This document shows positions 793 to 43,615 of a stretch of 64,000 nt of DNA, piece after piece. The position numbers were made by a program, and so were the translations under genes. The stretch covers positions 87,816 through 151,815 of the forward strand of contig JANRKO010000062.1 in the NCBI GenBank assembly GCA_033763455.1. Direction: 5' to 3'. The stretch comes from Polyangiaceae bacterium (GTDB lineage Bacteria > Myxococcota_A > Polyangia > Polyangiales > Polyangiaceae). How positions within the stretch are numbered: position 1 is the first letter of the stretch; every line of letters begins with the position of its first letter. Below the pieces are notes generated by a model, which saw only the letters and a program-made list of their open reading frames with translations, did not search any database and was not told the DNA's origin.

Positions 793-1956
793 TCACAATG
801 GGACGCGGAACGAGGGTACAGCGTTGCGCCGAAAGTGAGAAGGCGTTTGCTTCAGGACCCTGCGAAACGCCACCTGCAATTGGCGAACTTTTCCAAAACC
901 ACTTCGGTAGGCTACATTCTCCATACCGAGCTCGCTTTCGGCCAGCAGGCGCTCGGCCTCTTCGAGGCGAAAGCGGAGCCAGGCCTGGGCCGGCGAGATG
1001 CCGATCGATTCTCTGAACTTTCGCTCCAGAGTTCGGCGTGAGCAGCCAATGGTGTCGAAAAGCTCGCGTAGGCAGTTTTCGTCCGTGGCGTTTGCTTGCA
1101 AGTGGATCAGAGCTCGCGCAACCGACGGGTCACCTGCAGCAATGGCCTCCGTTGAGCGCCGGGTAACGACTCGAATGGGGGGCAACCGAATGTGCTCGGC
1201 CGGGGCTCCCTCAAGGGCCATCCGCTCAAGGAGGTTCGCAGCCACGTAGCCGCTGCGTTCACCAGCTATTTGCACGCTACTCAACGAAGGAGCCGCCAAC
1301 GCGCAGACGGGGACGTCGTTGTCGACACCTAGGAGCGCAATCTGCTCTGGGACGGAAATCCCCAGCTCTCTGCACAATTCCGTTGCGGACAGCGCCGCAT
1401 TGTCCGAGGCGCACAGGACGGCGGCTGGTTGGGGCAGGCTCAGAAGCCAACTTCTTAGCTCCTCCAGCTCACGGGTGAGCGAGCCGGTGCTGGCATAGGA
1501 CGGATGGCTTGGTGTTGCCGACGTGACAGCCACCTGACACTCATGCCCGAGCTTGCGAAGCGCTGTCTGAAATTCACGGCAGCGAGCGTCGACCGCGCCT
1601 TCAACAGTGGCATAGTACCCGAAGTGTCGGTAGCCGCGCCCCATGAAGTAACCTGCCGCCATCTTGCCGATTGCCGATTCGTCGTTATCGACGGATCCCA
1701 CGCCGGGGGACGTAGGCGCTTCGCCGAAACACACAAGAGGGATTTGGGCGCGTTGGATCAGACCTAGACATTTCGCATCTAGATGTTTGCCTAAGATGCC
1801 ATCAGGAGTTACCTGCAACAGCCGTTCAATACCTGACACGCTCGGGCTTTCCCAAGTAAATACCCACGGTTTGCTCGGTCGCGCATAGGCCGCGATCCCC
1901 CGCAGAAACATCTCGCTTGGGCCGCCCCGGCGGTCCATCGCCAAACCTACGTGCAT
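793..1956 (-). CDS. XylR-type regulator (LacI/periplasmic-binding-protein sensor plus AraC HTH)
   Basis: Motifs GISVPEQIALLGVDND, PSLSSV, PPIRVVTRRST and C-terminal SRRTLERKFRESIGISP...SGF...AFRR...TPSHFR. Start placed at MHVGLAMD by similarity to the paralogue at 42485-43615. Confidence 0.9.
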   Translation of the reverse strand: MHVGLAMDRRGGPSEMFLRGIAAYARPSKPWVFTWESPSVSGIERLLQVTPDGILGKHLDAKCLGLIQRAQIPLVCFGEAPTSPGVGSVDNDESAIGKMAAGYFMGRGYRHFGYYATVEGAVDARCREFQTALRKLGHECQVAVTSATPSHPSYASTGSLTRELEELRSWLLSLPQPAAVLCASDNAALSATELCRELGISVPEQIALLGVDNDVPVCALAAPSLSSVQIAGERSGYVAANLLERMALEGAPAEHIRLPPIRVVTRRSTEAIAAGDPSVARALIHLQANATDENCLRELFDTIGCSRRTLERKFRESIGISPAQAWLRFRLEEAERLLAESELGMENVAYRSGFGKVRQLQVAFRRVLKQTPSHFRRNAVPSFRVPL

Positions 1957-1974
1957 CGTAGCTCGCAATCGGTT

Positions 1975-2129
1975 GTGTCGCGAACAGCCGCATTCCTCAC
2001 AAACACTGGCGCAAGTATGAAGGCCCGCCGCCGGTTGCGCCAGCAGCGCAGAAGTTCTCGCACAGAAGTAGAAAAACACTGGCACTTTCTCGAGCCACCC
2101 GACGCTACGGCGTGTCGCAAATGCACGCA
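1975..2129 (+). promoter_or_regulatory. Repeated candidate operator GTGTCGCRAAYNNNCGCA in the XylR/DUF1592 divergent region
   Basis: gtgtcgcgaacagccgca at 1975-1992 and gtgtcgcaaatgcacgca at 2112-2129. A related TGGCGCAA lies at 2007-2014. Confidence 0.35.
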
Positions 2130-2256
2130 CGAAAGTCGGCAACCGGGCTTGTTTGGCATTAGTTGGCCCCGTAGATTGCCTATTATCGACACGAACCTGT
2201 CGGCCTTTTGGCGCCGAATAACGGGCGTCCAACTGTCTATTTGGAGAACCGCACCC

Positions 2257-4014
2257 ATGCGCTACGCGTACCGCGACTACACGAGCAGCTCGACCCTGCC
2301 GGGAGCCAAAGGCTCGCATGCATTGCTCCCCTCATTGCTAGGTTGCTGTCTTCTGCTGGCCGCGGGCTGCGCCAACGAGGCAGAGAGGGGGCCGGGCCGA
2401 AGTCCTTTAGGTCCGGCTACGCCAGCGGTGGGCGACCCAACTTCGATGCCCGGCGGCATGCCAAGTGGAACTCCAGGCCCAGGCCCAGGTCCAGGGGTTG
2501 TCGCTCCCGGCATGGTGCCGGTACCCGCCGGCGCGGTGGTGGGACCTGCGCTCGCGCGTCGGCTCACCAATGTGGAGTTCCTGAACACGATCCAGGATCT
2601 TCTTCACCCGCAGGCTCCTCCCTCCGCCAGCCTCACGCCCGACACGCTGACGCGCGGGTTCGATAACCTGAGCGGATCCTTGCTGGTGCCTCCGTCAACT
2701 GCGTTTGCGTACGCGGAGTTTGCCGCCGAACAGGCGAAGTCGTTTCAGGTACCCGCGTGCGCCGCGCCCGCAGCGGAGGCGGACTGTGCGCAATCGTTCA
2801 TTGCAAGCTTCGGCAAGTTGGCGTTTCGTCGTCCCCTCACCGCTGAGCAGTCGGCGCAGTACCTAGCTCTCTATACTGACCAAAAGGGTCGGAGCGATCA
2901 CGCGGGGGGCATTCGGCAGGTGGTGCAGACGATGCTGCAGTCACCGTACTTCTTGTATCGTTACGAGAACGGCACCGAGGGCGCCCAGCGGACGCTCACG
3001 CAGCATGAGATTGCGAGCCAACTCTCGTACTTCTTGACGGCCACCATGCCCGATTCAGATCTGTTCCAAGCAGCGGATAACGGCCAGCTCTCCAGCGTAG
3101 AGCAGATCACCGCACAGGCGCAGCGCCTCTTGGGCAGCGAGAAGGCAAAGCCGGCAATACGTCGGTTCGTACTGGGGTTTTCGGAGCTCCTTGCCTTCGA
3201 TCGAGTGGTCAAAGACAACGCCACCTATCCTGAGTTCACGGCCAAGCTTTCCGGAGCAATGCTGGAAGAGACCAGTCGCTTCATCGATGAGGTGCTGTGG
3301 CAAGGCGACGGCACTTACTCCACCCTCTTCTCGGCGCCCTATTCGTTCATCAATAGCGATCTCGCACCGTTCTACGGAGTGGCGGATCCCGGGCAGGGCG
3401 GCACGTTCGTCAAGACCAATCTCCCGGGCACAGAGCGTCTCGGTCTCTTGACGCAGGCATCGGTCCTTGCGAGTCACGCAAAGCCGGGTGAATCCTCGCC
3501 CATTCATCGAGGGAAGTTCGTGCGCGTCGCGCTGCTTTGCCAGAACCTGCCAGCACCGCCCGCAGTTGTGCCAAAGCTCCCACCACCTTCCCCGAATCTG
3601 ACCACTCGTGAGCGCATCACGCAGCATTCAGCAGATCCCGCGTGTTCAGGCTGCCACCAACTGATCGATCCCATTGGGTTCGGACTCGAAAACTACGACG
3701 GCATTGGTAAGTTCCGTACAGTTGAAAGCGGCATGCCCGTCAATGCGGCGGGCGCGTTCACCAGCACTTCGGACCTCAATGGCGCATTCGTGGGGGGAAC
3801 TGAGCTCGCCGCCAAGCTGGCGGCCAGTCGAGAGGCTCAGCAGTGCTTGGCCCAACGCGCTTACGGCTGGGCTTTCGGGCGCTCGGTGCTCGACCAAGAA
3901 CTTCCCAAGCTCGCGGAGTTGCTCGGCCCGTTGTCGCAGTCTGGTTTGAATATCAAAGAGGTCATGTTGGCCATCACACGCGCCGATAATTTCAGGTTTC
4001 GGTCATTCGAATGA
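2257..4014 (+). CDS. DUF1592/DUF1588/DUF1595-family lipoprotein with one c-type heme motif (copy 1)
   Basis: Lipobox LAAGC, ARRLTNVEFLNTIQDLL, FGKLAFRRPL, LQSPYFLYR, EIASQLSYFL...PD, SSPIHRGKFVR, CSGCHQLIDPIGFGLENYDGIG. GGAGA RBS precedes ATG 2257. Confidence 0.9.
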   Translation: MRYAYRDYTSSSTLPGAKGSHALLPSLLGCCLLLAAGCANEAERGPGRSPLGPATPAVGDPTSMPGGMPSGTPGPGPGPGVVAPGMVPVPAGAVVGPALARRLTNVEFLNTIQDLLHPQAPPSASLTPDTLTRGFDNLSGSLLVPPSTAFAYAEFAAEQAKSFQVPACAAPAAEADCAQSFIASFGKLAFRRPLTAEQSAQYLALYTDQKGRSDHAGGIRQVVQTMLQSPYFLYRYENGTEGAQRTLTQHEIASQLSYFLTATMPDSDLFQAADNGQLSSVEQITAQAQRLLGSEKAKPAIRRFVLGFSELLAFDRVVKDNATYPEFTAKLSGAMLEETSRFIDEVLWQGDGTYSTLFSAPYSFINSDLAPFYGVADPGQGGTFVKTNLPGTERLGLLTQASVLASHAKPGESSPIHRGKFVRVALLCQNLPAPPAVVPKLPPPSPNLTTRERITQHSADPACSGCHQLIDPIGFGLENYDGIGKFRTVESGMPVNAAGAFTSTSDLNGAFVGGTELAAKLAASREAQQCLAQRAYGWAFGRSVLDQELPKLAELLGPLSQSGLNIKEVMLAITRADNFRFRSFE

Positions 4015-4051: not shown

Positions 4052-5464
4052 ATGATTTCTCGCGCAGTCCTGAAACGACGCTCACTCTTGAAGCAGCTAG
4101 GTGCCTCGGCATTCCTTGCGATTCCAGTGTTCCGCTCGGTCATCGCTGAGGCTCAGGCAACCGCGCCTAAGCGATTGGTCTTGTTTCACTTTCCAAGCGG
4201 AGTGAGCACGAAGCAACTAGGAATGGAGGAGACGGTCAAGAACTCAACTTGGGACTATGACTACGTTCTCCAGGGTCTCAAAGAGATCCAGTCTGACGTC
4301 ATTGTTTTTCAGAACATGACGCATCCCACGGGTGATATTGTAAGCTCGTTCAACGAACTCGAAGGTCACGGGGGTGGCATGCGGACAATGTTCACTGGCA
4401 GCACCGACCATGCTTCTACCGAAATTGTCCCAGTATCCCAGGCCTACGGAAAAACATCCTCGATCGATCAGCTAGTGGCCAATGCGCTCCAGCCGACGAC
4501 GCAGTTTGGCTCACTGCAGCTGGGGGTGATCACTACCGCCAACGGTACCGCAGAAGGTCGGCGTTGTATCTTCAACAACGGGACTCACCTGGAGCCTGTG
4601 GAGGATCCCCAAGCCGTATTCTCTCGGCTATTCCCTAGTGGAGCGGCAGCGCCAGCCCCTTCCAGCACCATGGCGCCCGATCCTAATGCGACAGCAGAGC
4701 TTCTGGCTGTTTACCAGCAGGGCAAGAGCCGTTTGGATCAGTTGAAAGCTGAGTTAGAAGCCGTTCGCAGTATCGTTTCCACCGAGGAGCGAGCCAAGTT
4801 CGACCTGCACCTGACGTCACTGCGCGAGCTTGAAAATGCCCTACCTCGGGTTGGGGGCTCTGGGGGCATTTCTCAAGGCGTGACCTGCCAAGCACCCAAC
4901 ATCGGCGGCATCCAAGGAACCCAGAAGAACGCGCCTGAATATTACAGTGTGGACTTCATTCAGCAGTTGGGGCCAGTCATGCAGGAGCTGGCCTATCAGG
5001 CCATCAACTGCGATTTGAGCCGCATCGTGAGCTTCCAATGGCTCTCCACGGGAGACAACAGCATCTTCCCTTTCCTCGGCATCAAAGACACTCATCACCA
5101 CCTAGAGCACGGGTGGGGTGGGGGCGCGGGGATCAAAGGGGATTACGACAAGATCCAGACATGGCTCATGGATCAGATCTCTATGTTCATCAAACGCCTG
5201 CGCATGACACCTGAGAGCAACGGCAACATGCTGGACAACAGCGTGGTTCTCGTAGCCTCTGAGATGTGGGGTGGTCACGGCCACCAGGAGTACATCGGGC
5301 TGGTGGCTGGCAAGGGCGGTGGTGCCATCCGCCCAGGGCGTGTGTTGGACGCCGGAGGTCGGTCGAACAATGATCTGCTGGTTACCATCGCCAACGCGAT
5401 GGGCGTTAACGTGAACAGCGTGGGCGACCCGATGTACTGCGCCGGGCCAATCGATCTAAGTTGA
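4052..5464 (+). CDS. DUF1552-family protein with Tat signal (copy 1)
   Basis: KRRSLLK Tat motif, PKRLVLFHFPSG, SIDQLVA, HLTSLRELE, CDLSRIVS, MLDNSVVLVASEM. Directly follows the DUF1592 gene. Confidence 0.9.
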   Translation: MISRAVLKRRSLLKQLGASAFLAIPVFRSVIAEAQATAPKRLVLFHFPSGVSTKQLGMEETVKNSTWDYDYVLQGLKEIQSDVIVFQNMTHPTGDIVSSFNELEGHGGGMRTMFTGSTDHASTEIVPVSQAYGKTSSIDQLVANALQPTTQFGSLQLGVITTANGTAEGRRCIFNNGTHLEPVEDPQAVFSRLFPSGAAAPAPSSTMAPDPNATAELLAVYQQGKSRLDQLKAELEAVRSIVSTEERAKFDLHLTSLRELENALPRVGGSGGISQGVTCQAPNIGGIQGTQKNAPEYYSVDFIQQLGPVMQELAYQAINCDLSRIVSFQWLSTGDNSIFPFLGIKDTHHHLEHGWGGGAGIKGDYDKIQTWLMDQISMFIKRLRMTPESNGNMLDNSVVLVASEMWGGHGHQEYIGLVAGKGGGAIRPGRVLDAGGRSNNDLLVTIANAMGVNVNSVGDPMYCAGPIDLS

Positions 5465-24150: not shown

Positions 24151-24324
24151 GGGTGGCTGGTGGCGCGAGTAGTACACAGGGGGTCAACGAAGGCCGCGGC
24201 CATCAGCTTGTCAGCTGTAGCGTATACAGATTAACCTCATGATAAGCGGGAAGCTTCCCGGATCTCTCTTCCAGGGTGAGGCGCAGGGTCAAAAAAACGC
24301 GAGAACGCCTGTTCCGGAACAAAA

Positions 24325-26142
24325 GTGAACCACCCTGCGAGGGTCGGGCTACTAACTCCCGTGCGCCATTGTTCCCCCCTTCTTGAGAAGCCGTTCTGGT
24401 GTTCGGCGCCGCTAGCAGTTGCCTGCGGCGTCGTAATTTTCGTCATTGGCTGCACCGGCCAGATCCCTGACAGAGCCGGTCCGACCGAGGTCGGCGTCGG
24501 TGCTACCCCGCCGGGGTCCGGTTCAGGTGGCAACCCACCAGGCACCGTGCCTTCGGGCTCCGTAGGCATGCCTGGTGCCGCGGGGGCCACGGGTGGTGGG
24601 GCGAACATGGCCCCATGCGCGCCCGGTGCTGTGGTGCCCCTCCGTAGAATCACAGCTAAGCAATATGCGGGGAGTGTCAGGGACTTGTTTCGCGATAAAA
24701 TTGCCCCCAGCGCAGCGTTTCCTGCGAGCGCCGTTTCGATCTCGCTGAGTGGCTTCAGTACAGATCCAGAATCCAACACTGTCACCCAGCTCGCTGCCGA
24801 AGATATCTTGAAGGCTGCCGAAGACACCGCGGTCGAGGTGGCAACCAAGCTCACGGATCTTTTGCCCTGCGCCGCCAGCACGCCGGATATCGCGTGTGCC
24901 GGTCAATTCCTCGACGATTACGGTGCGCGGGCACTAAGACGCGGGTTAACGTCTGAGGAACGCTCCAGTTTGCTCAAAGTGCATACTGGTTTTTCCGCGA
25001 ACGGGTTCGACGTGGGCATTGCGGCAATGACCGAAACCTTGCTGCAGTTGCCGCAGTTTCTATACCTGGTCGAAATCGGACCGAGCGACGCTCCCTCAGG
25101 AGCTGTGCAGCTCACGCCGGACGAAATTGCAACACGCTTGTCGTACTTGCTCTGGGAAACACTGCCCGACGACAAGCTGACCTTGGCGGCGCGTTCCGGC
25201 GAATTAGGCACGCCCATGGGTATTCGCGCACAAGCTCTACGATTGCTCTCGGACGCTCGAGCCACGGGGACGATCCAGCGTTTCTTTCGTGAATGGACGA
25301 ACTTCAAACAATTCCCCGCGAGCTCCAGGACGCCGCTTTATCCGGGCTTTTCTGAGATGCTTGAGGCTTCTATTCAGGCGCAGTTTGATGAATTTGCGAG
25401 TGAAAGCGTCCTTGGGCCCGATCCTTCCCTGGAGCATCTCTTCACAAGCAGCTCATTCCCCGTAGATGCGGAGCTCGCGAAGTTCTACGGGGTTGCTCAG
25501 CCTTCCGCGCCGGGGTTCTCAAACATGTCTCTCGGTGCCCCCCATGCGGCGGGTGTATTGGCGCTTCCGGCGCTCCTGGGCGGCTTGTCGCATGAGACGG
25601 TCACAAGTATCATTTTTCGCGGAAAATTCGGGTTAACTAAGCTGCTCTGCACTGATTTGCCGAGTCCGCCCGCAGGAGCTGCGAGCCAGGTACCCATGTT
25701 GCCCGCTGATGCGACTACACGACAGAAATCCGAAGCACTTCGTGCCAATCCTACGTGCGCGGCTTGCCACCATTTGATCGACAACGTGGGGCTCGGGTTT
25801 GAAGATTTTGACGCCATCGGCCGGCACCGCACACAGGATGCCCTTGGCGGGCCTGTGGATTCCCTCGGTCAGTTGCCGAACGGGGTGGCTTTCAACGGAG
25901 TCGCCGAGCTCGGTGCGCTATTGGCAAAAGATCCTGCAGTTGAGCAGTGTTTGGCCAAGCAGTGGTTTCGATTCACGTTCAGTCGGCGCGAAGCTGAAGC
26001 CGATTCTTGCACGCTTACAAGCCTACAGAGTGCCTTGGGTGCGCCTGGGCACTCTCTGAAGGAGCTCATGCTGGCGATGGTCTCGCAGCCTGCGTTCTCC
26101 AACCGTTTCGTGCGAGATACTGCTACCGGAGGTACCCCGTGA
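24325..26142 (+). CDS. DUF1592/DUF1588-family mono-heme lipoprotein (copy 2)
   Basis: Lipobox VIGC, LRRIT..QY..SVRDL, LQLPQFLY, EIATRLSYLLW...PD, CAACHHLIDNVGLGFEDFDAIG. Confidence 0.9.
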   Translation: MNHPARVGLLTPVRHCSPLLEKPFWCSAPLAVACGVVIFVIGCTGQIPDRAGPTEVGVGATPPGSGSGGNPPGTVPSGSVGMPGAAGATGGGANMAPCAPGAVVPLRRITAKQYAGSVRDLFRDKIAPSAAFPASAVSISLSGFSTDPESNTVTQLAAEDILKAAEDTAVEVATKLTDLLPCAASTPDIACAGQFLDDYGARALRRGLTSEERSSLLKVHTGFSANGFDVGIAAMTETLLQLPQFLYLVEIGPSDAPSGAVQLTPDEIATRLSYLLWETLPDDKLTLAARSGELGTPMGIRAQALRLLSDARATGTIQRFFREWTNFKQFPASSRTPLYPGFSEMLEASIQAQFDEFASESVLGPDPSLEHLFTSSSFPVDAELAKFYGVAQPSAPGFSNMSLGAPHAAGVLALPALLGGLSHETVTSIIFRGKFGLTKLLCTDLPSPPAGAASQVPMLPADATTRQKSEALRANPTCAACHHLIDNVGLGFEDFDAIGRHRTQDALGGPVDSLGQLPNGVAFNGVAELGALLAKDPAVEQCLAKQWFRFTFSRREAEADSCTLTSLQSALGAPGHSLKELMLAMVSQPAFSNRFVRDTATGGTP

Positions 26143-27533
26143 GCCAACGTTCCTCAATTCTTCGGCGTGAATTTCTACGTGGCGCAGGCGGCGTTGCCAT
26201 TGGTCTGCCGTTCCTTTCGCAGACTCAACGTTCGGTTCAAGCAGCTCCAGGGTCTCATCCTCAGCGGCTGGTGGTAGTTTTTCACGGCGAGGGCACCATG
26301 CTTGATCGCTTCACACCCACCTCTGTGGGCTCCAACTTCGAGCTTTCGCCGCTGCTACAACCCCTAACCACCCACAAGCAGAAGCTCACGGTCATAAGTG
26401 GGCTGGATAACAAGGTTGCCTCAGCCATGGGCGGCAATGGTCACAACAAGGCTGGCCGCTCCATCGTTACCGCTCAAACGTTTTCCAACGCACCCAATGG
26501 CGGCGGGGATAACGGGGATGCCAATGGCCCTTCCATTGATCAAGTAATTGCTAGCCGTATTCAAGAGGCTACAAGGCTAAAATCTGTTGGCCTCGGTATT
26601 TCATGCTCTGGGGTTGGCGAGTATCAGATCTTCTACGCGGGCAAAGACGATCCTGTTTCACTCCAAAACAATCCACTCACGGCATTCGACAGCCTTTTTT
26701 CGAGCTTACCCATGGGTGGCGCGCCGGCCCCCGCTCCCACGCTCACGCTTCGCGACCGCTTGCGGGCAGGGCGTGGCAGCATTTTGGACACTGTGGCCCA
26801 GAATTTTGATGCTCTGGTGAAGCGCGTCGGCAAAGAAGATAGAGACCGCCTAGTGCTACACGCCGAAAAGATCCGCGAGCTCGAGCGCCTTTCGAGCAGC
26901 GTGAGCATGCCACCTTCACCGGGTGCTGCGTGTGGCCGGCCTGACCTCGGGTTGGCGCAGGGGTTCAACGTGTGCGATGCCGATCAGGAGCCGCTAGTTG
27001 CCAAGGCACAAATGAAGAACGCCGCAATGGCACTTGCCTGTGATGTCACACGGGTCGCGACCGTACAATTCACCGATTACGATAGCCCTCGCTTTAGTTT
27101 TCTCGGCAAAGGGATCCCTGGGGATTATTCGAACTGGCACGCGATGATCCATCGTGACGGTGGCCTGAAGCCCGGCCGTGACGACATGGTGTTTGCAGGC
27201 ATGAGCTACTATTCATCGCAAGTTGCCCTGCTTCTGGATGAGCTAGCAGCCATCGACGACGGTGACGGCCAGACGTTGCTCGACAATACTTTGGTGCTGT
27301 GGATTAGTGAGTTTGGAGAAGGTGGGAGCCACGATACCAGTCAAATTCCGGTAGTGTTAGCCGGCGGCGCGGGAGGCAAATTGAAAACAGGGCAGCACCT
27401 GAGCTTCGCCAACCAAAACCGAACCACCAATGATCTTTTCGTAACTATGCTCAACATATTCGGCGGCACCGATACGAGTTTTGGATTTGGCGGTAGTGAT
27501 CTGAACAAAGGGCCGCTGCCCGGAATCGCCTAG
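26139..27533 (+). CDS. DUF1552-family protein with Tat signal (copy 2)
   Basis: LRREFLRGAGGVAIGLPFL, GPSIDQVIA, CDVTRVAT, LLDNTLVLWISEFGEGGSH. GTGA overlap. Confidence 0.9.
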   Translation: MSQRSSILRREFLRGAGGVAIGLPFLSQTQRSVQAAPGSHPQRLVVVFHGEGTMLDRFTPTSVGSNFELSPLLQPLTTHKQKLTVISGLDNKVASAMGGNGHNKAGRSIVTAQTFSNAPNGGGDNGDANGPSIDQVIASRIQEATRLKSVGLGISCSGVGEYQIFYAGKDDPVSLQNNPLTAFDSLFSSLPMGGAPAPAPTLTLRDRLRAGRGSILDTVAQNFDALVKRVGKEDRDRLVLHAEKIRELERLSSSVSMPPSPGAACGRPDLGLAQGFNVCDADQEPLVAKAQMKNAAMALACDVTRVATVQFTDYDSPRFSFLGKGIPGDYSNWHAMIHRDGGLKPGRDDMVFAGMSYYSSQVALLLDELAAIDDGDGQTLLDNTLVLWISEFGEGGSHDTSQIPVVLAGGAGGKLKTGQHLSFANQNRTTNDLFVTMLNIFGGTDTSFGFGGSDLNKGPLPGIA

Positions 27534-27535
27534 AG

Positions 27536-37454: not shown

Positions 37455-38771
37455 CTACTTGGCAACCTTTTTCACGGAGTGTTCGCCCTGCGACGTGTAA
37501 TAAACAGCGCTCGCATCGAGCGCGATGCCGGCGAGATCTACCTCGCCGGTCGCAAGCGCAACGGGAAGTGAGGCGCCCTTCTGTAGAGCCATTACCTTGC
37601 CGGAACGGTTGACCCAGTAAATACCCGATGCGTCGACAGCGAGATCTGCGGGCTCGGATGGGTCGATAGCTAGAAGTTGCGGAGTGCCGCCTGCAAGCGG
37701 AACCGTGGATACTTCGCCTGTGGCCGAATCCACCCAGTAGAGCGAATTGTTGAATAAACGGAGACCGACGGGTCGAACCAAGCCACCCACCAAAATGCTG
37801 GAGGAGCCCGGTGCCGAGACTTTGTAAATGCCCTTTGCGGCACTGAAATAGACGACACCATCTTTTGCGATGACGTCGAGTGGGCGATCGATTTTCTCAG
37901 CGAGCTTCTGCTGGCTTGTTCCGTCGAGTTTCACGGACATCACGGCGCCTTCAAGTGCACCGCTTGCACCCTCGGCGGCCCAGTAAATCGTGCCGCCTTC
38001 GACAGCGATACCTCGGGCACCATCGACGCCACCACTGATATACCGCGCAGACGTGAGGAGTGCCTTATCCCTCACCCAAGCCCCCTTGGTACCGCCGTCG
38101 TTGCAGGTCCAATAGATGCTGGTGTCGTCCGCCGTGATGCCCCATGTGTTGCCGGGGTAGCCGGCCACTTCCATTGGCATCGCACCCCCGGGCGCAGCTA
38201 GCTGGCGGACTGCGGGCGTTTGGTAGGCTCCGTTGGAGGTCCAATACACGAGGCCACCTGTGACCATTAGGTGCTTGGGCTGGTCCTGGCCGGCAGCGAG
38301 CAAGATAGAGCCGCACGCGCCAGAATTGCACGAGGCGCCCAAGCAATCGCGGCCGCAGGCTCCACAGTTCTTCGCATCGACCTGCAAATCTATCTCGCAA
38401 CCGTCACTTCCGGTCTGGTTACAGTCTGCAAACGAGCCCCTGCATTGGATCCCGCACTCTCCCGCTTCGCAGACGGGAAAGCTCGCCGGGCCCGAGCCGC
38501 ACACTTTTGCGGTGCTGCCACAGGCGCGCGGATCGCCGAAACGGCTGGGGGTACTCATGAACCCTGCCGTGCCGGCCTGTGCGTTGCCGTGAAGCTTCGC
38601 CCCACCAAAAGAACCCGCACCTCCGCTGCCAGCCCCTGAACCGATGCCCGTGCCCGCGGCGGCACCCGCACCCATACTTTCAACCGCGGCCGTGGGTGCA
38701 CAGCTTGCTGCTCCTGTCGCCGCACACAGAACTACGCTCAGAAAACGTGATGGCACGCTTAGGCCCTCCAT
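37455..38771 (-). CDS. Secreted beta-propeller protein with myxobacterial Cys-rich repeat
   Basis: Gly-rich linker, then FADCNQ..DGCEIDL..DAKNCGACGRDC, then repeated IAVD...IYW blades. Start may be GTG 38756. Confidence 0.75.
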   Translation of the reverse strand: MEGLSVPSRFLSVVLCAATGAASCAPTAAVESMGAGAAAGTGIGSGAGSGGAGSFGGAKLHGNAQAGTAGFMSTPSRFGDPRACGSTAKVCGSGPASFPVCEAGECGIQCRGSFADCNQTGSDGCEIDLQVDAKNCGACGRDCLGASCNSGACGSILLAAGQDQPKHLMVTGGLVYWTSNGAYQTPAVRQLAAPGGAMPMEVAGYPGNTWGITADDTSIYWTCNDGGTKGAWVRDKALLTSARYISGGVDGARGIAVEGGTIYWAAEGASGALEGAVMSVKLDGTSQQKLAEKIDRPLDVIAKDGVVYFSAAKGIYKVSAPGSSSILVGGLVRPVGLRLFNNSLYWVDSATGEVSTVPLAGGTPQLLAIDPSEPADLAVDASGIYWVNRSGKVMALQKGASLPVALATGEVDLAGIALDASAVYYTSQGEHSVKKVAK

Positions 38772-38821
38772 TGTGGGGGACGAGCGACACCGAGAACACC
38801 AGAAGGCACGCTTAGGCCCTC
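38752..38821. repeat. 17-bp direct repeat GGCACGCTTAGGCCCTC x2, 53 bp apart
   Basis: Exact copies at 38752-38768 and 38805-38821, spanning the DUF1552 stop and the next gene start. Confidence 0.8.
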
Positions 38822-40245
38822 AATGCTGGAAGATCGACAAAGTATTGTGGATCCCCAAAGCGATCCACGTTCACGCCCATGGCCTGGCAAAGCGCAGTTA
38901 AAAGACCAGTGTTCGAAACGTTCTCGTCCGCTTTTCCGCCCACCCAACGCAAAAATTGCCCAGTTTTGAAATAGCCACCACAGCTTCCAGCTAACACCCA
39001 AGGTAAATCTGTAATGCGGTGGGAGGCGCCCTCGGCAAATACGTTAGCGCAGAGCACTGCACTTTGGTCGAGGAGGGTCGTGCCATCCGGCTCGTGGTAC
39101 TGCTTCATTCGCTCAATAATGTAAGCAAATTGGCTGATAAACCACTGATCAACCAGGTTTTTACGTCGAGTGTGTGCTGCGTCTGTATACGCGTGGTGCG
39201 CTATCTCGTGATGCTGCCGCAGTGGCCCACCGCTTCCTGCGTTATCAGCATCACGCCCGGTAATAAATTCATCCCCCAACCAAAAGAAGGAATACCCCCA
39301 GTTGCTGGAATTCGACCACAAGAGCGAGGCCACGCGAACCAAATCACAAGCCAGAGCCGTGACTACCATGTCAGCCTGAAGCTTGTGCACGGTAGGGATG
39401 AGGGGCGTGTACTGGGAATTGACGTAATCCAAGCTGGCGTCTGGCCGCGTCGGCGCGCTGCAGGTGGCAGTGAAAGCCTGCAATTCCTGCTCTAGCTGGC
39501 GAACGGATGCGAGGTGCTGGTCGATCTGTTGGCGATCTTCGGTGCCCATGTTCTTGCCAAAAGCTTCCAGATCTCTACCCAAATAGTCGAAAACGCTCTT
39601 TCGGGCGGCCCGTATCCGCGCCAAGCGGTCAGAGGTCAGCGCGGCACCACCGAAGAGGCGATCGAAAAGCCGCACCGGATCCGTCTCGGGCTCCGGAGCA
39701 TTGGGCTGACCGCCGAGCGCGCTGCCGTGAAAAGATATGAAGCGGTCGTTGCCGTTTTGCTTAATGCACTGCAGCTGAAGGGAATGGATCGGCGTCTTTG
39801 AAGCTTTTGCGAACTCATCCGCGATGAACATATCGACAGAGGGGCCACCGGCCGAGAGAGGCACACCGTCGCTGATGGTGCCGTTGATGGCCGCGCCGTC
39901 CACGCCGGTAAACATAAACGGCATTGAAGCATGCCCTCCGCCCTGCTTCTGGTTCGGGTACGTCATGCCGCCCACGATGAGAATGTCGTTTTGGTGGGGG
40001 ATGAGGGGCTTCAAGACAGACTGCTCGTCCGTTGAAATCGTAAACGAAGCTGGGTCAGCCATCGGAAAGCCACCCGCGGGCCAGAATGCATCACCGATGA
40101 CTCCATTGGGCCAAGCCATCAAAACGAGGCGTTTGGGGAGGGTTGAATTGGCGCTCACGCCCACCCGCGCTTGGAGCAGTGGTAAGAAAGCAGCGCTCAC
40201 CCCGAGCGCTTGCAAAATAGCACGGCGCGAGAACTTGGAGTTCAT
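38812..40245 (-). CDS. DUF1552-family protein with Tat signal (copy 3)
   Basis: SRRAILQALG..AAFLPLL, PKRLVLMAWPNG, GPSVD, HLASVRQLE, CDLVRVAS, LLDQSAVL...EGASH. Confidence 0.9.
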   Translation of the reverse strand: MNSKFSRRAILQALGVSAAFLPLLQARVGVSANSTLPKRLVLMAWPNGVIGDAFWPAGGFPMADPASFTISTDEQSVLKPLIPHQNDILIVGGMTYPNQKQGGGHASMPFMFTGVDGAAINGTISDGVPLSAGGPSVDMFIADEFAKASKTPIHSLQLQCIKQNGNDRFISFHGSALGGQPNAPEPETDPVRLFDRLFGGAALTSDRLARIRAARKSVFDYLGRDLEAFGKNMGTEDRQQIDQHLASVRQLEQELQAFTATCSAPTRPDASLDYVNSQYTPLIPTVHKLQADMVVTALACDLVRVASLLWSNSSNWGYSFFWLGDEFITGRDADNAGSGGPLRQHHEIAHHAYTDAAHTRRKNLVDQWFISQFAYIIERMKQYHEPDGTTLLDQSAVLCANVFAEGASHRITDLPWVLAGSCGGYFKTGQFLRWVGGKADENVSNTGLLTALCQAMGVNVDRFGDPQYFVDLPALRA

Positions 40246-41969
40246 TGGGTTACCTCTCCCGTCGCTACTTTGCGCAGCCTGAAAGCCGGGCTTTCCGCAA
40301 TGGAAATCAAGAGCTTCGTGAGATCGAAGCCAGATGCGGCGAAAGATTGGTAGCTTGCATCCAGCGATGGCCCATCTTCGGAAACCTCAGCACGGCGCAA
40401 GGCAAAGCGGAACCATTGACGCGCCATACAGCGACGAACCTGCTCACTTTGGGCAAGCAGAGCTGCGAGCTCGGGTGCACCCGAAAAGGACACTCGTGCG
40501 CCATCCAGCCCTTCGATGAACCCTGTAGTGTCAATGGGCGTGGGCCCGGCAGCGGGGATAACCCCGCCGATAGCGTCGTAATTGCTGAAGCCAAACCCAA
40601 TTGGATCCATCAAGCTGTGGCACGTTCGGCACGGTTCCACCGTGCTGTGCATGGCCAACTGTTCCCGCTGCGAGACCCCGGCCACAGGCGCTGGGAGCTT
40701 GGGGACGTTATTCGGCGGTGGCGGTAGCGGCGAACAATTGATGAAGTGTTCACGAATCAGCTTGCCTCGCAGGATTGCCGAACCTTCGTAGGCATTGGCG
40801 TGGGTTGAGAGGATGCTCGCCTGCGTCAAGAGCCCCGCACGCTCGCTCGACTTGAGCTCCACGCGCCGAAGAGCGTTCCCCGTGACACCGGCAATTCCAT
40901 AGAGCTTCGCCGTGGATTCGTTCAAGAAAGAAAAGGGAGCTGTCATCAGTGTATCGAAGCGAGCATTGCCTTCAAAGAAGACGCTTTCAACGAACGCCAT
41001 CGTTTCTTCACGCATCGATTGCCGGAGCTCATTCGTGTAGCCAGGAAAGGCGACCGGATCTTTCACGTTGTGCGCGAGGCTATCTAGGTCGAGCCACTGC
41101 CGGTGAAAATCGCGCACGGTAGCGCGCGCACGGGGATCTAGGAGCATACGCTGCGCCTCAGCGGCTAGCTCCGAAGGGCGCGTAAGGGCATGAGCTTCGG
41201 CGCGAGAGAGGAGCGCCTCATCCGGCATGGAGCTCCAGAGGAAGTACGAAAGCCGCGAGGCAAGCTCGTAATCTGTGAGTGCGATGAGCTTTCCTGGCCC
41301 TGGAACCCCAGCGGGAGTGGCCCCGAGCTCCCAGTGGTAGAGAAACTGAGGGGACTGCAACATCGCAGACAGGACAACCTGGATACCATCCGCGTAGGTT
41401 GTTTCGGGAACAGCGCGAAATGTTGCGTACACGCCTGTGAGCTCAGCGCGCTCAGCGTCTGTCAGTGGCCGACGGAAAGCCGCTCGCCCGAATTTGCTCA
41501 AGAATGCATCAAAGCAAGCGCTTTCGCCCGTTTGCCCCGCGGTACAGGGCGCAAGGTCCGCGGTGCGGAGGGCGGCGCTGGCAGCAAGGGATTCTGCCGC
41601 ATCAAGATAACTTCTAGCGTCGATATTCGAGAAGGTTCCCGGCGTGGAATAGCCAGAACCGCCGCTTGTTTCCCCAGGGAAAGCGTCGGCTGGCCGTGTG
41701 GTATCGCCGAGCAGATCCCGAACTGTATTGTTATATTCTTCGTGTGTGAGCCGGCGCAAAGGCTGCACGGCCCCGGTGGGGTCGCCCGAGGAGCCTCCTG
41801 TGCCCGGGGTGTTAGCAGCACCTGAGGCGGAACCATCTGCTGCATTTGCTGCCCCGCCTGTGCTGTTCGCAATTTCCTGAGAAGCGGGTTTGTTTTCGGC
41901 GCAGGAAAGCGAAAGGGCCGCTGGCGCAAGAGCAAAAAGGAGGGCTGCATGTCGCCGTGAGCCGGGCAC
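40242..41969 (-). CDS. DUF1592/DUF1588-family mono-heme lipoprotein (copy 3)
   Basis: LRRLTHEEYNNTVRDLLG, AFRRPL, LQSPQFLY, ELASRLSYFLWSSMPD, CRTCHSLMDPIGFGFSNYDAIG. Confidence 0.9.
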   Translation of the reverse strand: MPGSRRHAALLFALAPAALSLSCAENKPASQEIANSTGGAANAADGSASGAANTPGTGGSSGDPTGAVQPLRRLTHEEYNNTVRDLLGDTTRPADAFPGETSGGSGYSTPGTFSNIDARSYLDAAESLAASAALRTADLAPCTAGQTGESACFDAFLSKFGRAAFRRPLTDAERAELTGVYATFRAVPETTYADGIQVVLSAMLQSPQFLYHWELGATPAGVPGPGKLIALTDYELASRLSYFLWSSMPDEALLSRAEAHALTRPSELAAEAQRMLLDPRARATVRDFHRQWLDLDSLAHNVKDPVAFPGYTNELRQSMREETMAFVESVFFEGNARFDTLMTAPFSFLNESTAKLYGIAGVTGNALRRVELKSSERAGLLTQASILSTHANAYEGSAILRGKLIREHFINCSPLPPPPNNVPKLPAPVAGVSQREQLAMHSTVEPCRTCHSLMDPIGFGFSNYDAIGGVIPAAGPTPIDTTGFIEGLDGARVSFSGAPELAALLAQSEQVRRCMARQWFRFALRRAEVSEDGPSLDASYQSFAASGFDLTKLLISIAESPAFRLRKVATGEVTQ

Positions 41970-42040
41970 TCGCGCAGGCTAGCAGGGCCCTTGGCGCGGG
42001 AGAAGCGCGAGTTTTGCCGCTGCGCGCCGTAAAAATGCAA

Positions 42041-42076: not shown

Positions 42077-42124
42077 CAGAAGCAGGTAGGTGTGCTCCAC
42101 CCGCCTCGGGCTAGACTGAAAGCC

Positions 42125-42425
42125 GTGCGTGTTGGCTTAGCTGTTGAGATGAACATTGGCTACCTTCGGGATGCGCTTTCGGGCAGCGTGGACCCGTTTT
42201 CGCTTGGAGGAAGCGCAGCATCTACCAGCAGAGAGCGAACTCAAGCTGCCGCTCGTGGCGGAGCTGAGCGGTTTTCGCGAGGCCAAGTATCTCTCTGAGG
42301 CGTTCAAGAAGCTGACCGGCCAAACCCCGGGCAAGTTCAGGCACTTGGCAACCCCATCCACACAAGCGGTTCCGCCAGAGGCTGAGGAAAGTGCAGGCGT
42401 GACGCTGGCTTACCACAAGGGCTGA
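42125..42425 (+). pseudogene. XylR-type regulator remnant with a large internal deletion
   Basis: N-terminus VRVGLAVEMNIGYLRDAL (from GTG 42125) is joined out of frame near 42180 to the C-terminal HTH AAWTRFRLEEAQHL.AESEL...SGF...AFKKLTGQTPGKFR. Both pieces match the two intact XylR paralogues. Confidence 0.8.
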
Positions 42426-42484
42426 GGGATGTCTTCTAACCTGCTCCAATTTGCTCAGGTGGACGTGGTTTCGGTGACTGCCAA

Positions 42485-43615
42485 TTAACGCTTGGGTTCG
42501 GTGAGGCGTGCTCGTTTGCGAAATTCACTGGGTGTGATGCCAGCATGTTTGCGGAAATTGGCCGATAATCCGCGGGATTCGCTAAAGCCGCACAGGCTCG
42601 CCACCACCTCCATGCTGAGGTTTGTCTCGAGAAGTAGCCGCTCGGCCTCGCGCATCTTGAGATGCATCCACATGGCAGACGGGCTCATGCCGGTTTGATC
42701 TTGGAAGCGGCGCTCGAAAGTGCGGCGTGAGCAGCCCAGCTTCTTTGAGAGATAGTCGATCCCGGCTTCGACTCCGAGCTCCCTGTGCATGAGCCCGATG
42801 GCTTCACGGATCATGGGGTCGCTTGTGATCGACGCATCGGTTGAGCGTCGTTCAACGATGCGCAGCGGAGGGATGAGAAGGGTGGTGCTCGGCAGCGCGG
42901 TGCCGGAAAAAGAAGCGCTCAAGCGCTCCGCCGCGGCATAACCAATCTCTTCAGACGCAACTTCCACGCTGCTCAGGGCCGGATCGCTGAGTGAGCACAC
43001 GACTTCGTCGTTATCGACTCCTAAGATTGCGAGCTCACCCGGAATAGAGATGTTGCGCTGCCGGCAGGCTTCAGCCGCAAGCCAGGCCCGTTCATCACAG
43101 TCGCAGAAGAGCGCACACGGTTTGGGCAGCGCCACTAGCCATTCTGCAAACGCAACCTTGTTGCTGTTGATATCCGCCCGTTCGACGAATAGTGGGCAAG
43201 CGAAGTGTTTTGCCTGGATGGCGCGCTGAAAAGCCAAAACTCGGTCGTCTTGGAGCTTGCCCGCTAGCGCTGCTCCCCCGAAGTTTTGGAATCGCTGGAA
43301 TAGCAGGTAATCGGCGGCCATAGTGCCAATGGCTTCTTCATCGTGATGCACGGTGTTGAGATTGGGTGTTCGGCAGGTGCTCCCCACGCTTACTACATGG
43401 GCGAAGCTGCTCTTCGCGAGGGATAGCTCGGGCTCGTAGAGGGCACCCACAATCAAGCCGTCGATACCTTCGTCGAGCAATTGCCGAAGCCCTGCTGGCG
43501 TCGCTTCCGCGCGGTGAAGCTCCCAGTTTCGATGAGGACGCGCGTATTCGGCCACTCCGCGCAAGGCACCTCGAAAGTGCTCAACGCTCATGTCCATCGC
43601 AACGCCTATGCGCAT
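42485..43615 (-). CDS. XylR-type regulator (LacI sensor plus AraC HTH)
   Basis: IPGELAILGVDND, PALSSV, PPLRIVERRST, SRRTFERRF, CGF...NFRKHAGITPSEFR. Confidence 0.9.
   Translation of the reverse strand: MRIGVAMDMSVEHFRGALRGVAEYARPHRNWELHRAEATPAGLRQLLDEGIDGLIVGALYEPELSLAKSSFAHVVSVGSTCRTPNLNTVHHDEEAIGTMAADYLLFQRFQNFGGAALAGKLQDDRVLAFQRAIQAKHFACPLFVERADINSNKVAFAEWLVALPKPCALFCDCDERAWLAAEACRQRNISIPGELAILGVDNDEVVCSLSDPALSSVEVASEEIGYAAAERLSASFSGTALPSTTLLIPPLRIVERRSTDASITSDPMIREAIGLMHRELGVEAGIDYLSKKLGCSRRTFERRFQDQTGMSPSAMWMHLKMREAERLLLETNLSMEVVASLCGFSESRGLSANFRKHAGITPSEFRKRARLTEPKR

What the first reader, a model, noticed from the sequence alone, without database searches (positions are those of the whole stretch)
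793..43615. Repeated XylR-regulated module: mono-heme DUF1592 lipoprotein plus Tat-exported DUF1552, three diverged copies in 42 kb
Seen: the pairs at 2257-5464, 24325-27533 and 38812-41969 always have DUF1592 (lipobox, Gly/Pro tether, one CxxCH) upstream of DUF1552 (twin-arginine signal). Copies 1 and 3 are divergent from a XylR-type gene (intact or decayed), copy 2 is divergent from a Cip1-like gene, copy 3 is followed by a beta-propeller gene, and a GH45 cellulase lies between copies 2 and 3. Established: both DUFs are uncharacterised and expanded in Planctomycetota and Myxococcota, and XylR-type sensors bind sugars. Inference: a sugar-inducible extracytoplasmic two-subunit redox or metalloenzyme system tied to polysaccharide use, with paralogues tuned to different substrates.
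Basis: partly seen in the sequence, partly recalled or inferred. Interest (0 to 1): 0.75.

Follow-up and report, generated by a model that had tools for sequence, protein, structure and literature searches.

The report
Haem lipoprotein plus phosphatase-fold enzyme pairs
The window holds three ordinary members of a family of about 72 co-evolving gene pairs (a lipid-anchored one-haem protein and an exported metalloenzyme-like protein) whose function is still unknown; in this bacterial genus they are unusually numerous and often sit beside their own sugar-sensor-type regulators.

Summary
All three pairs, the one-CxxCH lipoprotein architecture, the twin-arginine signals, two XylR-type regulators, a decayed third, the GH45 and weak Cip1-like and propeller matches are at the stated places.

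Three copies in 42 kb is not special. The genome carries 72 such pairs, against 0-16 candidates in 80 other sampled genomes of the phylum.

DUF1552 models as an alkaline-phosphatase/sulfatase-superfamily core without the sulfatase formylglycine motif. The haem protein has no solved-fold match.

The two partners co-evolve (Mantel r 0.76, 0 of 2000 shuffles). A complex is predicted (ipSAE 0.74, best control 0.00).

AraC-family regulators are strongly enriched: 29 of 50 lie within 2.5 kb, against 4.4 expected. Only 23 of 72 pairs have one, and the link was not seen in other genera.

The carbohydrate link is moderate: 19/161 against 4/149 by a broad definition, not significant by a strict one.

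The pair itself is already in print as an unexplained pair (PMC5615132), and this scan has noted it in at least 35 other genomes. Function remains unproven.

The parts
1..495 (-). N-terminal part of a second AraC-family regulator; the gene runs off the window start
   Evidence: HTH_18 hit at G000:C62:87447-87680 just before the window. My gene call spans -380..495.
793..1956 (-). XylR-type regulator (periplasmic-binding-protein-like sensor domain + AraC HTH), intact, divergent from copy 1
   Evidence: Peripla_BP_3 E 8.6e-32 and HTH_18 E 6e-19. The 387-aa start fits the 376-392 aa of the paralogues. No NCBIfam model reaches its cut-off.
1957..2256 (.). Divergent intergenic region between the regulator and copy 1; presumed promoter/operator
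   Evidence: Position only. No operator was identified.
2257..4014 (+). Copy 1 haem lipoprotein (PSD3-PSD5-PSD4-PSCyt3-PSD2, one CxxCH)
   Evidence: Pfam; translation. Nearest paralogue is the module at C92:17547, which also has a divergent XylR-type gene.
4052..5464 (+). Copy 1 DUF1552 (HXXSHH), twin-arginine signal
   Evidence: PF07586 E 8.6e-49; KRRSLL motif.
23095..24177 (-). Cip1-like/polysaccharide-lyase-like gene divergent from copy 2
   Evidence: PF21340 E 3.7e-6, 26.9 bits against a cut-off of 27. It belongs to a BLAST cluster in which 3 of 4 genomic copies lie within 3 genes of a module.
24325..26142 (+). Copy 2 haem lipoprotein (start codon uncertain)
   Evidence: Pfam; translation. 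Nearest paralogue is at C89:34959, similarity 0.79.
26139..27533 (+). Copy 2 DUF1552; its start overlaps the upstream stop (GTGA)
   Evidence: PF07586 E 1.4e-55; LRREFL motif; junction read.
37455..38771 (-). Putative beta-propeller gene 41 nt downstream of copy 3, same strand
   Evidence: DUF5050 E 5.3e-6, 26.3 bits, below the cut-off of 27. Gap and strand.
38812..40245 (-). Copy 3 DUF1552; alkaline-phosphatase-superfamily core with a helical hairpin insertion
40242..41969 (-). Copy 3 haem lipoprotein; its N-terminal PSD3/PSD5 part is predicted to dock on the DUF1552 hairpin
   Evidence: Pfam. Model pLDDT 86.8. Complex ipSAE 0.74 against a best control of 0.00. ATGA overlap.
42156..42425 (+). 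Decayed C-terminal remnant of a XylR-type regulator, divergent from copy 3
   Evidence: HTH_18 E 2.6e-11 (protein 82). Stops lie upstream in frame, and the 7 best BLAST hits other than itself are all XylR-type; the best is the copy-1 regulator, 48% over 66 aa.
42485..43615 (-). Intact XylR-type regulator upstream of copy 3 on the same strand
   Evidence: Peripla_BP_3 E 4.2e-28 and HTH_18 E 1.1e-23.

Best explanation
The three loci are ordinary members of a very large, genus-specific expansion of the known but uncharacterised PSD/PSCyt3 (DUF1592-type) + DUF1552 gene pair. This genome has about 72 complete pairs.

Shown or computed:
- The two genes are co-oriented, often translationally coupled, and duplicate and diverge as a unit.
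- DUF1552 has a twin-arginine signal and an alkaline-phosphatase/sulfatase-superfamily core with a conserved His/Asp set.
- The partner has a lipoprotein-type signal, a flexible Gly/Pro/Ser tether and one invariant c-type haem motif.
- A 1:1 complex is predicted through the partner's N-terminal PSD3/PSD5 part and a helical hairpin inserted in DUF1552.

Inferred:
- The metal-loaded subunit leaves the cytoplasm folded by Tat. The haem subunit leaves by Sec and is lipidated and haem-loaded outside. They assemble into a membrane-tethered periplasmic enzyme in which the haem passes electrons to or from the metal centre.
- Each paralogous pair acts on a different small organic or glycan-derived substrate.
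- In this genus about a third of the pairs are switched on by an adjacent one-component AraC-family sensor (XylR-type or cupin-type), and others perhaps by ECF sigma factors.

The chemistry is unknown.
For: Family size and order:
- 83 PF07586 and 80 PF07631 hits. They form 72 pairs, all on the same strand, 70 with DUF1592 upstream.
- Exactly one CxxCH in 77 of 79 haem genes. C447, C450 and H451 are invariant in 73 of 73 aligned paralogues.
- Cys at the lipobox column in 61 of 73. The next 45 residues are 76% G/P/S/T/A/N.

Structure:
- Models: pLDDT 83.6 and 86.8.
- Conserved H105, D138, D220, H346, H350, D393, H409, and Ser/Thr at position 136 in 72 of 72.

Partnership:
- Mantel r 0.76 over 71 pairs, 0 of 2000 shuffles reaching it. 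The nearest paralogue agrees for both genes in 35 of 71.
- Complex: ipSAE 0.74 (median of 3 runs), best of 3 controls 0.00. The mark was reached by 116 of 157 solved complexes and 2 of 215 mismatched pairs. Runs agree in at least 64% of contacts, and the partner pLDDT is at least 78. I supplied my own alignments and a haem rode along, so the calibration holds only roughly.

Regulators:
- 29 of 50 HTH_18 hits lie within 2.5 kb, against a mean of 4.4 and a maximum of 14 in 2000 random placements.
- 24 of 161 first neighbours against 1 of 149 controls carry HTH_18, Fisher P 9e-7.
- ECF sigma factors: 11 of 30 lie within 3 genes, against an 8.2% background, P 1.4e-5.

Substrate hints:
- All 4 ThuA and both 3-keto-disaccharide-hydrolase genes of the genome lie 550-1248 bp from a module.
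- Carbohydrate-like first neighbours, broad definition: 19 of 161 against 4 of 149, P 0.002.
- Malectin- and CBM-fused relatives occur in other phyla (PMC5615132, section 13).
Against: - No biochemical or expression datum exists for any member.
- By a strict definition (named GH/PL/CE families) carbohydrate neighbours are 8 of 161 against 4 of 149, P 0.38.
- 49 of 72 pairs have no AraC-family gene within 2.5 kb.
- The AraC link was not found in other genera: 0 of 15, 0 of 19, 0 of 1 and 1 of 66 HTH_18 hits near a DUF1552 hit. The last genome is very fragmented.
- Regulators and modules do not co-diverge in general: r 0.18 overall and -0.04 for cupin-type. Only the 5 XylR-type cases give r 0.95.
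- The predicted interface does not name the haem region (residues 412-470), so electron transfer to the metal site is not shown.
- No distal haem ligand is conserved. The best candidate, H441, is present in 53 of 73.
- Alkaline-phosphatase-superfamily enzymes known to me (recalled) are hydrolases, transferases or mutases, not redox enzymes.
- Gene calls came from a home-made caller, and carbohydrate classes were assigned by eye.
Confidence: 0.5

Rival explanations
1. DUF1552 is a plain hydrolase of the alkaline-phosphatase superfamily, acting on sulfate, phosphate or phosphonate esters of glycans or other organic matter. The haem lipoprotein is a non-redox anchoring, substrate-binding or sensing subunit.
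For: The fold matches are sulfatases, NPPs and phosphatases. Ser/Thr136 is invariant and sits just before helix 137-148, where the superfamily's nucleophile usually lies (that position is recalled; the residue counts are). Asp/Glu/His ligand candidates are conserved. One module is followed by an FGE-sulfatase-domain gene (protein 48). Sulfatase genes were reported next to PSCyt genes in Verrucomicrobia (PMC5615132, section 13).
Against: No conserved C/S-x-P-x-R formylglycine motif: 19 of 72 have such a pattern somewhere, at scattered places. The end of strand 1 reads P-N-G where the superfamily usually has a metal-binding Asp (that position is recalled). The CxxCH is invariant in 73 of 73 paralogues that are only 21-40% identical to the first sequence of the alignment, which argues that the haem is essential to function.
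Confidence: 0.22
2. The pair is an envelope sensing or signalling device, not a catabolic enzyme. It would report an extracytoplasmic cue, for example redox state or a ligand bound by the phosphatase-fold subunit, to ECF sigma factors.
For: ECF sigma factor genes are enriched near modules: 11 of 30 within 3 genes. One FecR-domain neighbour was found (protein 67). No distal haem ligand is conserved, as in some haem sensors (the comparison is recalled).
Against: About 72 co-evolving pairs with conserved catalytic-type residues look like an enzyme family. AraC-family neighbours are cytoplasmic one-component sensors that need no envelope relay. Neither partner has a transmembrane signalling domain in Pfam.
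Confidence: 0.08
3. The neighbourhood of regulators and carbohydrate genes is incidental. The pairs simply accumulate in accessory, regulator-rich regions of the genome, and the XylR genes control other genes.
For: The link is absent from other genera. Regulators mostly do not co-diverge with modules. Many first neighbours are housekeeping genes such as LeuRS, GroEL, GreA, UvrD and PEP carboxylase.
Against: 24 regulators are immediate neighbours. 13 of them lie directly upstream of the DUF1592 gene, 9 divergent and 4 co-directional. 29 of 50 against 4.4 expected is far beyond any of 2000 random placements. Copy 1 and its nearest paralogue both keep a divergent XylR-type gene.
Confidence: 0.12

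Closest known systems
PSCyt3/PSD ('group III planctomycete-specific cytochrome', DUF1587-1595-1592-1588-1585) gene next to a DUF1552 gene. He et al. 2017, mSphere, PMC5615132 (section 13 read). The domains were first defined in Rhodopirellula baltica (recalled: Studholme et al. 2004).
   Same: The same Pfam domains in the same order, a DUF1552 gene beside it, high copy number in some genomes, and unknown function with a suspected carbohydrate role.
   Different: Here the haem protein is a one-haem lipoprotein with a Gly/Pro tether and no extra cytochrome or CBM domain. There are about 72 pairs in one 6.6-Mb genome. AraC/XylR-type regulators and ECF sigma factors are enriched beside them, which the passages I read do not mention.
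Cytochrome-DUF1552-ankyrin triads noted earlier by this scan in Acidobacteriota and other phyla (notes e1-723764, e1-4745489 and others)
   Same: The same core pair, the same alkaline-phosphatase-type fold for DUF1552, and several old paralogous copies per window.
   Different: The haem proteins there have two or three haem motifs and a constant exported ankyrin partner. Here none of 161 first neighbours has an ankyrin match. The genome's four Ank_2 hits lie at two places, neither beside a module.
DUF1501 + PSCyt1/2-PSD1 (DUF1549/DUF1553) pairs
   Same: A parallel arrangement: a haem-motif PSD protein next to a gene of a second unknown family (PMC5615132, section 13). That DUF1501 is Tat-exported and has an alkaline-phosphatase fold is recalled, not tested here.
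   Different: A different pair of families. This genome has only 3 DUF1501 hits, so the expansion is specific to the DUF1552 type.
Type I sulfatases, NPP and PafA enzymes of the alkaline-phosphatase superfamily
   Different: 7-13% identity. No formylglycine motif. A His-rich conserved set, a long helical hairpin insertion used for partner binding, Tat export, and an obligate haem partner.
E. coli XylR-type regulators (periplasmic-binding-protein-like sensor fused to an AraC HTH)
   Same: The same two-domain architecture, and placement divergent from the regulated genes.
   Different: No NCBIfam regulator model reaches its cut-off. The ligand is unknown, and the neighbouring genes are not xylose genes.

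Membership tests
PSD/PSCyt3 (DUF1592-type) haem protein | Pfam PSD3, PSD5, PSD4, PSCyt3 and PSD2 above the gathering scores, in that order | tested here: met
   All five domains are above cut-off in all three window proteins.
PSD/PSCyt3 (DUF1592-type) haem protein | c-type haem attachment motif CxxCH | tested here: met
   One motif in each window copy. Invariant in 73 of 73 aligned paralogues. Actual haem attachment is not testable with these tools.
DUF1552 (HXXSHH, PF07586) | Full-length Pfam match above the gathering score, with the His cluster | tested here: met
   167-190 bits against a cut-off of 30. H346, H350 and H409 are conserved in 90-96% of paralogues.
Alkaline-phosphatase superfamily | Core alpha/beta fold | tested here: met
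Alkaline-phosphatase superfamily | Canonical metal ligands and nucleophile at the superfamily's positions | tested here: inconclusive
   Ser/Thr136, D138, H346, H350, E/D402 and H409 are conserved, but the end of strand 1 reads P-N-G rather than Asp. No coordinates were available for superposing the sites.
Type I (formylglycine) sulfatase | C/S-x-P-x-R motif at the nucleophile position | tested here: not met
   No conserved motif. 19 of 72 paralogues have such a pattern somewhere, at scattered positions.
Tat substrate | Twin-arginine motif followed by a hydrophobic stretch at the N-terminus | tested here: met
   3 of 3 window copies. 49 of 72 genome-wide, using approximate start codons. No dedicated predictor was run.
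Bacterial lipoprotein | Signal peptide ending in a lipobox Cys | tested here: inconclusive
   A lipobox-like Cys in all three window copies and at the aligned column in 61 of 73. Copies 1 and 3 have non-canonical residues before the Cys. No predictor was available.
XylR (xylose regulator) | Periplasmic-binding-protein-like domain + AraC-type HTH | tested here: met
   Peripla_BP_3 + HTH_18 in both window regulators, and in 11 genes genome-wide.
XylR (xylose regulator) | Orthology to a characterised XylR, or xylose as ligand | tested here: inconclusive
   No NCBIfam model reaches its cut-off; the best hits are partial matches to GntR, FtrA and RhaS models. The ligand is not testable here.
Two-subunit complex of the pair | Physical binding of the two proteins | tested here: met
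   Prediction only: ipSAE 0.74 against a best control of 0.00. Co-evolution r 0.76. No experiment.

The most novel reading that the evidence does not exclude
The pairs are a new class of haem-coupled redox enzymes built on the alkaline-phosphatase fold. This genus would use about 72 substrate-specific versions of them, many under their own one-component AraC/XylR sensors or ECF sigma factors. That would make them a periplasmic oxidative toolkit for breaking down diverse glycans and other organic matter, a functional counterpart of polysaccharide utilisation loci that works by electron transfer rather than hydrolysis alone.
Probability: 0.2. Interest if true: 0.8.

Novelty: new variant of a known kind. 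Interest (0 to 1): 0.45.

Why it matters
The DUF1592-type/DUF1552 pair has been an unexplained, widespread and often highly multiplied feature of Planctomycetota, Verrucomicrobiota, Acidobacteriota and Myxococcota genomes for about twenty years.

This genome adds three usable handles:
- A confident predicted heterodimer, with a defined interface that can be mutated.
- A clear fold assignment for the Tat subunit, with a short list of candidate catalytic residues.
- Dedicated ligand-binding regulators beside a third of the pairs. Their inducers could reveal the substrates without knowing the chemistry in advance.

It also shows that the regulator link is lineage-specific, which warns against generalising from one window.

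Tried and rejected
- Expression: no RNA holder was listed for window 37455-43615. Six DNA runs from sediment and soil metagenomes hold parts of it, none half of its words.
- Taxonomy: a GroEL-based scan of genome contigs gave only 51-56% identical hits from many phyla. The only hint is that the nearest Atlas clusters are mostly Myxococcota.
- Sequence search of solved structures: nothing convincing. Best for A1 were sulfatases at E 0.03; best for A2 were phycobilisome linkers at E 0.003-0.17.
- NCBIfam: no hit for 10 of 12 window proteins, and only sub-threshold hits for the two regulators.
- CBM or extra domains in the four longest DUF1592-type genes and one long DUF1552 gene of this genome: none found.
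- Ankyrin third partner, reported by earlier scan notes: not found among 161 first neighbours. The genome's Ank_2 hits are not beside a module.
- Pfam on 18 unexplained neighbour genes at E 0.05: only weak Cip1-like and DUF5050 matches and PSD fragments.
- Co-duplication of regulator and module as a general rule: rejected.
- Local tandem amplification as the origin of the three window copies: rejected, since each has its nearest paralogue on another contig.
- Literature searches for DUF1552, DUF1592, PSCyt2/3, DUF1501, DUF1553, DUF1588, DUF1587, DUF1595, DUF1585, HXXSHH and DUF1549 found no functional study. I read only passages of PMC5615132 and one table row of PMC6004670. The supplements of PMC5615132 (Text S1, Fig. 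S7), which hold its detail on these genes, were not opened.
Full report
**What is in the window**

A Pfam scan of 37 ORFs confirms three gene pairs.

| Copy | Haem protein | DUF1552 protein | Strand |
|---|---|---|---|
| 1 | 2257-4014 | 4052-5464 | + |
| 2 | 24325-26142 | 26139-27533 | + |
| 3 | 40242-41969 | 38812-40245 | - |

- The first gene of each pair carries PSD3, PSD5, PSD4 (DUF1592), PSCyt3 (DUF1588) and PSD2, all above the gathering scores. The second carries DUF1552 (HXXSHH) at 167-190 bits.
- The translations show one CxxCH per haem protein, a lipobox-like Cys followed by a Gly/Pro/Ser-rich stretch, and a twin-arginine motif at the start of each DUF1552.
- In copies 2 and 3 the start of DUF1552 overlaps the upstream stop by 4 nt. 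That suggests translational coupling.
- XylR-type regulators (Peripla_BP_3 + HTH_18) lie at 793-1956 (-) and 42485-43615 (-). The first is divergent from copy 1. The second is upstream of copy 3 on the same strand.
- An 89-codon HTH remnant at 42156-42425 (+) is divergent from copy 3. Its seven best matches in the genome other than itself are all XylR-type regulators.
- The Cip1-like and propeller matches fall just under Pfam's cut-offs, at 26.9 and 26.3 bits against 27.
- GH45 is clear, but it is separated from both neighbouring pairs by unrelated genes.

One nuance: the intact regulator at copy 3 is not divergent.

**Is three in 42 kb special?**

No.
- The window's genome (6.56 Mb, 92 contigs, 93.7% complete) has 83 DUF1552 hits and 80 PSD4 hits.
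- They form 72 pairs, all co-oriented. In 70 the haem gene is upstream.
- Three or more pairs in a given 42.8-kb span has Poisson P of about 0.012. One contig carries seven DUF1552 hits in 38 kb.
- The three window copies are not each other's nearest relatives. Copy 1 is closest to a module on C92 and copy 2 to one on C89, at similarity 0.85 and 0.79 for the two genes. Copy 3 has no close paralogue.

The expansion belongs to the genus.
- Three same-genus genomes have 79-88 hits. Other genera of the family have 0-14, and others of the order 0-24.
- In 80 other genomes sampled across the phylum, all at least 90% complete, the first-look candidate counts were 0-16, against 86 here. In that call the 'matches' column used a strict E-value and is not comparable.
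- The parallel DUF1501 family has only 3 hits here.

**The proteins**

I aligned the window proteins with 69-70 paralogues from the same genome (A1 and A2). Identity to the first sequence is 19-40%.

*DUF1552*
- The model is confident: pLDDT 83.6, pTM 0.85.
- It matches the alkaline-phosphatase superfamily. Foldseek's listed hits are sulfatases and other superfamily members, with prob of about 0.8-1.0 for all but one down to rank 45, though TM is only 0.3-0.4.
- Conserved polar residues are R39, H105, D138, D220, H346, H350, D393 and H409, plus a Cys pair (C262, C300).
- Position 136 is Ser or Thr in 72 of 72, directly before helix 137-148. Position 402 is Glu or Asp in 64 of 72.
- There is no conserved C/S-x-P-x-R motif, so it is not a formylglycine sulfatase.
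- I could not superpose active sites because no coordinates were available.

*The haem protein*
- The model is also confident (pLDDT 86.8) and almost all-helical.
- It has no convincing solved-structure match.
- CxxCH is invariant in 73 of 73. No distal Met or His is conserved; the best candidate, H441, is present in 53 of 73.
- The lipobox column holds Cys in 61 of 73, and the following 45 residues are 76% G/P/S/T/A/N.
- Genome-wide, 77 of 79 genes have exactly one CxxCH.

**Do the two proteins work together?**

- Similarity matrices of the two genes over 71 pairs correlate at r 0.76. None of 2000 label shuffles reached this (maximum 0.19).
- The nearest paralogue is the same module for both genes in 35 of 71 cases. 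The pair therefore duplicates and diverges as a unit.
- One complex prediction was run: copy 3, mature parts, my own alignments, with a haem riding along. It scored ipSAE 0.74 (runs 0.77, 0.74, 0.74) against 0.00 for all three controls.
- The tool's mark was reached by 116 of 157 solved complexes and 2 of 215 mismatched pairs. The runs share at least 64% of contacts, and the partner's pLDDT is at least 78. The tool warns that the calibration holds only roughly for my inputs.
- The interface joins residues 70-215 (PSD3/PSD5) and 568-570 of the haem protein to residues 154-254 of DUF1552. That stretch takes in the long helical hairpin (helices 205-230 and 235-258) inserted in the phosphatase-type core.
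- The haem region is not among the confidently touching residues, so the prediction says nothing about electron transfer.

**Regulators**

- Of 50 HTH_18 hits in the genome, 29 lie within 2.5 kb of a DUF1552 or PSD4 hit. Random placement gives a mean of 4.4 and a maximum of 14 in 2000 trials.
- For the 11 XylR-type genes the figure is 8 of 11.
- I called genes with a simple codon-usage model (5316 genes). I then scanned all 161 immediate neighbours of the DUF genes with Pfam at E of 1e-6 or better.
- 24 of them carry HTH_18: 7 XylR-type, 4 fragments, and the rest mostly with the cupin-type AraC ligand domain. One is a LacI-type regulator.
- The control was 149 of the 163 genes in ten random 20-kb regions at least 15 kb from any module; 14 were dropped for the size limit. 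It had 1 HTH_18 gene. Fisher P is 9e-7.
- 13 of the 24 lie directly upstream of the haem gene: 9 divergent and 4 co-directional.
- BLAST clustering of the 436 genes within three positions of a module finds 34 of the 50 AraC-family genes and 11 of 30 ECF sigma factors there. The background is 8.2%.

Limits on this link:
- Only 23 of 72 pairs have an HTH_18 hit within 2.5 kb.
- Regulators do not co-diverge with modules in general (r 0.18). Only the five XylR-type cases do (r 0.95, n = 5).
- In four other genera the link is not seen. By comparing contigs and coordinates by eye, 0 of 15, 0 of 19, 0 of 1 and 1 of 66 HTH_18 hits lie within 5 kb of a DUF1552 hit. The last genome has 1110 contigs with many AraC genes at contig ends, so it is a weak test.
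- No NCBIfam regulator model reaches its cut-off. 'XylR-type' therefore describes architecture, not ligand.

**Carbohydrate link**

- Among the 161 first neighbours I counted 19 with carbohydrate-related families: 3-keto-disaccharide hydrolase x2, ThuA x2, GH78, GH31, GH77, pectate-lyase-like RHGA x2, Pectate_lyase_4, Beta_helix, Cip1-like, Laminin_G_3 x2, PA14 x2, SASA esterase, GDSL and BNR.
- The control had 4 of 149: GH39, GH113, GlgB and GH43. The odds ratio is 4.9, P 0.002.
- With only named GH/PL/CE families it is 8 against 4, P 0.38. The classes were assigned by eye.
- More telling, all 4 ThuA genes and both 3-keto-disaccharide-hydrolase genes of the genome lie 550-1248 bp from a module hit. 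A random 600-bp placement lies within 1.5 kb of a module hit 6.7% of the time.
- Several genes tightly coupled downstream of DUF1552 encode GH78, GDSL, Cip1-like or pectate-lyase-like proteins.
- Outside this genome, relatives fused to malectin or other carbohydrate-binding modules exist (PMC5615132, section 13). A CBM2-bearing DUF1592 protein of Cellvibrio appears in a table of a lignocellulose multi-omics study of a microbial community (PMC6004670, one table row seen).
- He et al. also reported an inverse correlation between PSCyt and GH gene densities.

I read the link as plausible but not established.

**What is known**

- PMC5615132 (section 13 read) already states that PSCyt3 genes usually sit beside a gene of one unknown family, that nothing is known of their function, and that CBM fusions hint at carbohydrate metabolism.
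- This scan has noted the same pair in at least 35 other genomes. There it usually has two or three haem motifs and a constant exported ankyrin partner, and in some cases HiPIP or multihaem partners.
- Here there is no ankyrin partner. The haem protein is a one-haem lipoprotein.
- Three full-text searches found no functional study.

**Verdict**

Its 'repeat' aspect is ordinary for this genome. The reading as a two-subunit extracytoplasmic metalloenzyme is supported by computation, and the link to sensors is real but confined to this genus and to a third of the pairs.

I commit to a tethered periplasmic haem-metal enzyme whose paralogues act on different organic, probably glycan-derived, substrates. 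My confidence in the whole statement is about 0.5. It is much higher for the complex and the fold, and lower for redox chemistry and for carbohydrates.

Noticed in passing
window 5540-22889: An aryl-polyene or flexirubin-like lipid pigment cluster lies between copies 1 and 2. It holds a halogenase-like FAD enzyme, acyltransferases, an AMP-ligase with a FabA-like domain, GT2, an aromatic amino acid ammonia-lyase (E 1e-158), a LolA-like protein, an RND/MMPL-like exporter, DUF3261, three ketosynthase-type genes, a ketoreductase and an ApeP-type dehydratase.
   Followed up: no
window 30175-32300: A NapC/NirT-type tetrahaem gene followed by a cytochrome c552 (NrfA-type nitrite reductase, E 3.6e-118).
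   Followed up: no
window 32457-33716: A GH45 endoglucanase domain (residues 204-414) preceded by about 200 residues without a Pfam match. It is not adjacent to any of the pairs.
   Followed up: no
window 34136-37400: A fused methyltransferase/ATP-grasp (D-Ala-D-Ala-ligase-like) gene, a small ORF and a second ATP-grasp gene. This may be a small peptide- or metabolite-ligase cluster.
   Followed up: no
L052:1236-2096, L063:1-891, L047:7141-7941, L072:18666-19631, L032:7805-8380: An unnamed protein family of 191-321 aa with no Pfam match at E 0.05. All 5 genomic copies lie within three genes of a module, and four are first neighbours of a DUF1552 gene on the same strand. It is a candidate third component.
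   Followed up: partly
G000 C45:88335, C23:344850, C89:41201, C42:6872; C6:75007, C19:66333: Every ThuA gene (4 of 4) and every 3-keto-disaccharide-hydrolase gene (2 of 2) of the genome lies 550-1248 bp from a DUF1552/DUF1592 hit. Two of the ThuA genes sit beside 'orphan' DUF1552 genes that have an AraC gene but no haem partner.
   Followed up: partly
genome-wide: ECF sigma factor genes are enriched near modules: 11 of 30 within three genes, against an 8.2% background. One FecR-domain neighbour was also seen.
   Followed up: partly
G000 C45:81848-119737: Seven DUF1552 hits within 38 kb, a denser cluster than the one in the window.
   Followed up: no
G010, many contigs: In this fragmented relative (1110 contigs) many AraC-family HTH hits lie within the first 100-600 bases of their contigs. 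The assembly may break repeatedly next to these genes.
   Followed up: no
window 43768-48029: A TetR-family regulator followed by HlyD-type and MacB/FtsX-type efflux genes, directly beyond the copy-3 regulator.
   Followed up: no
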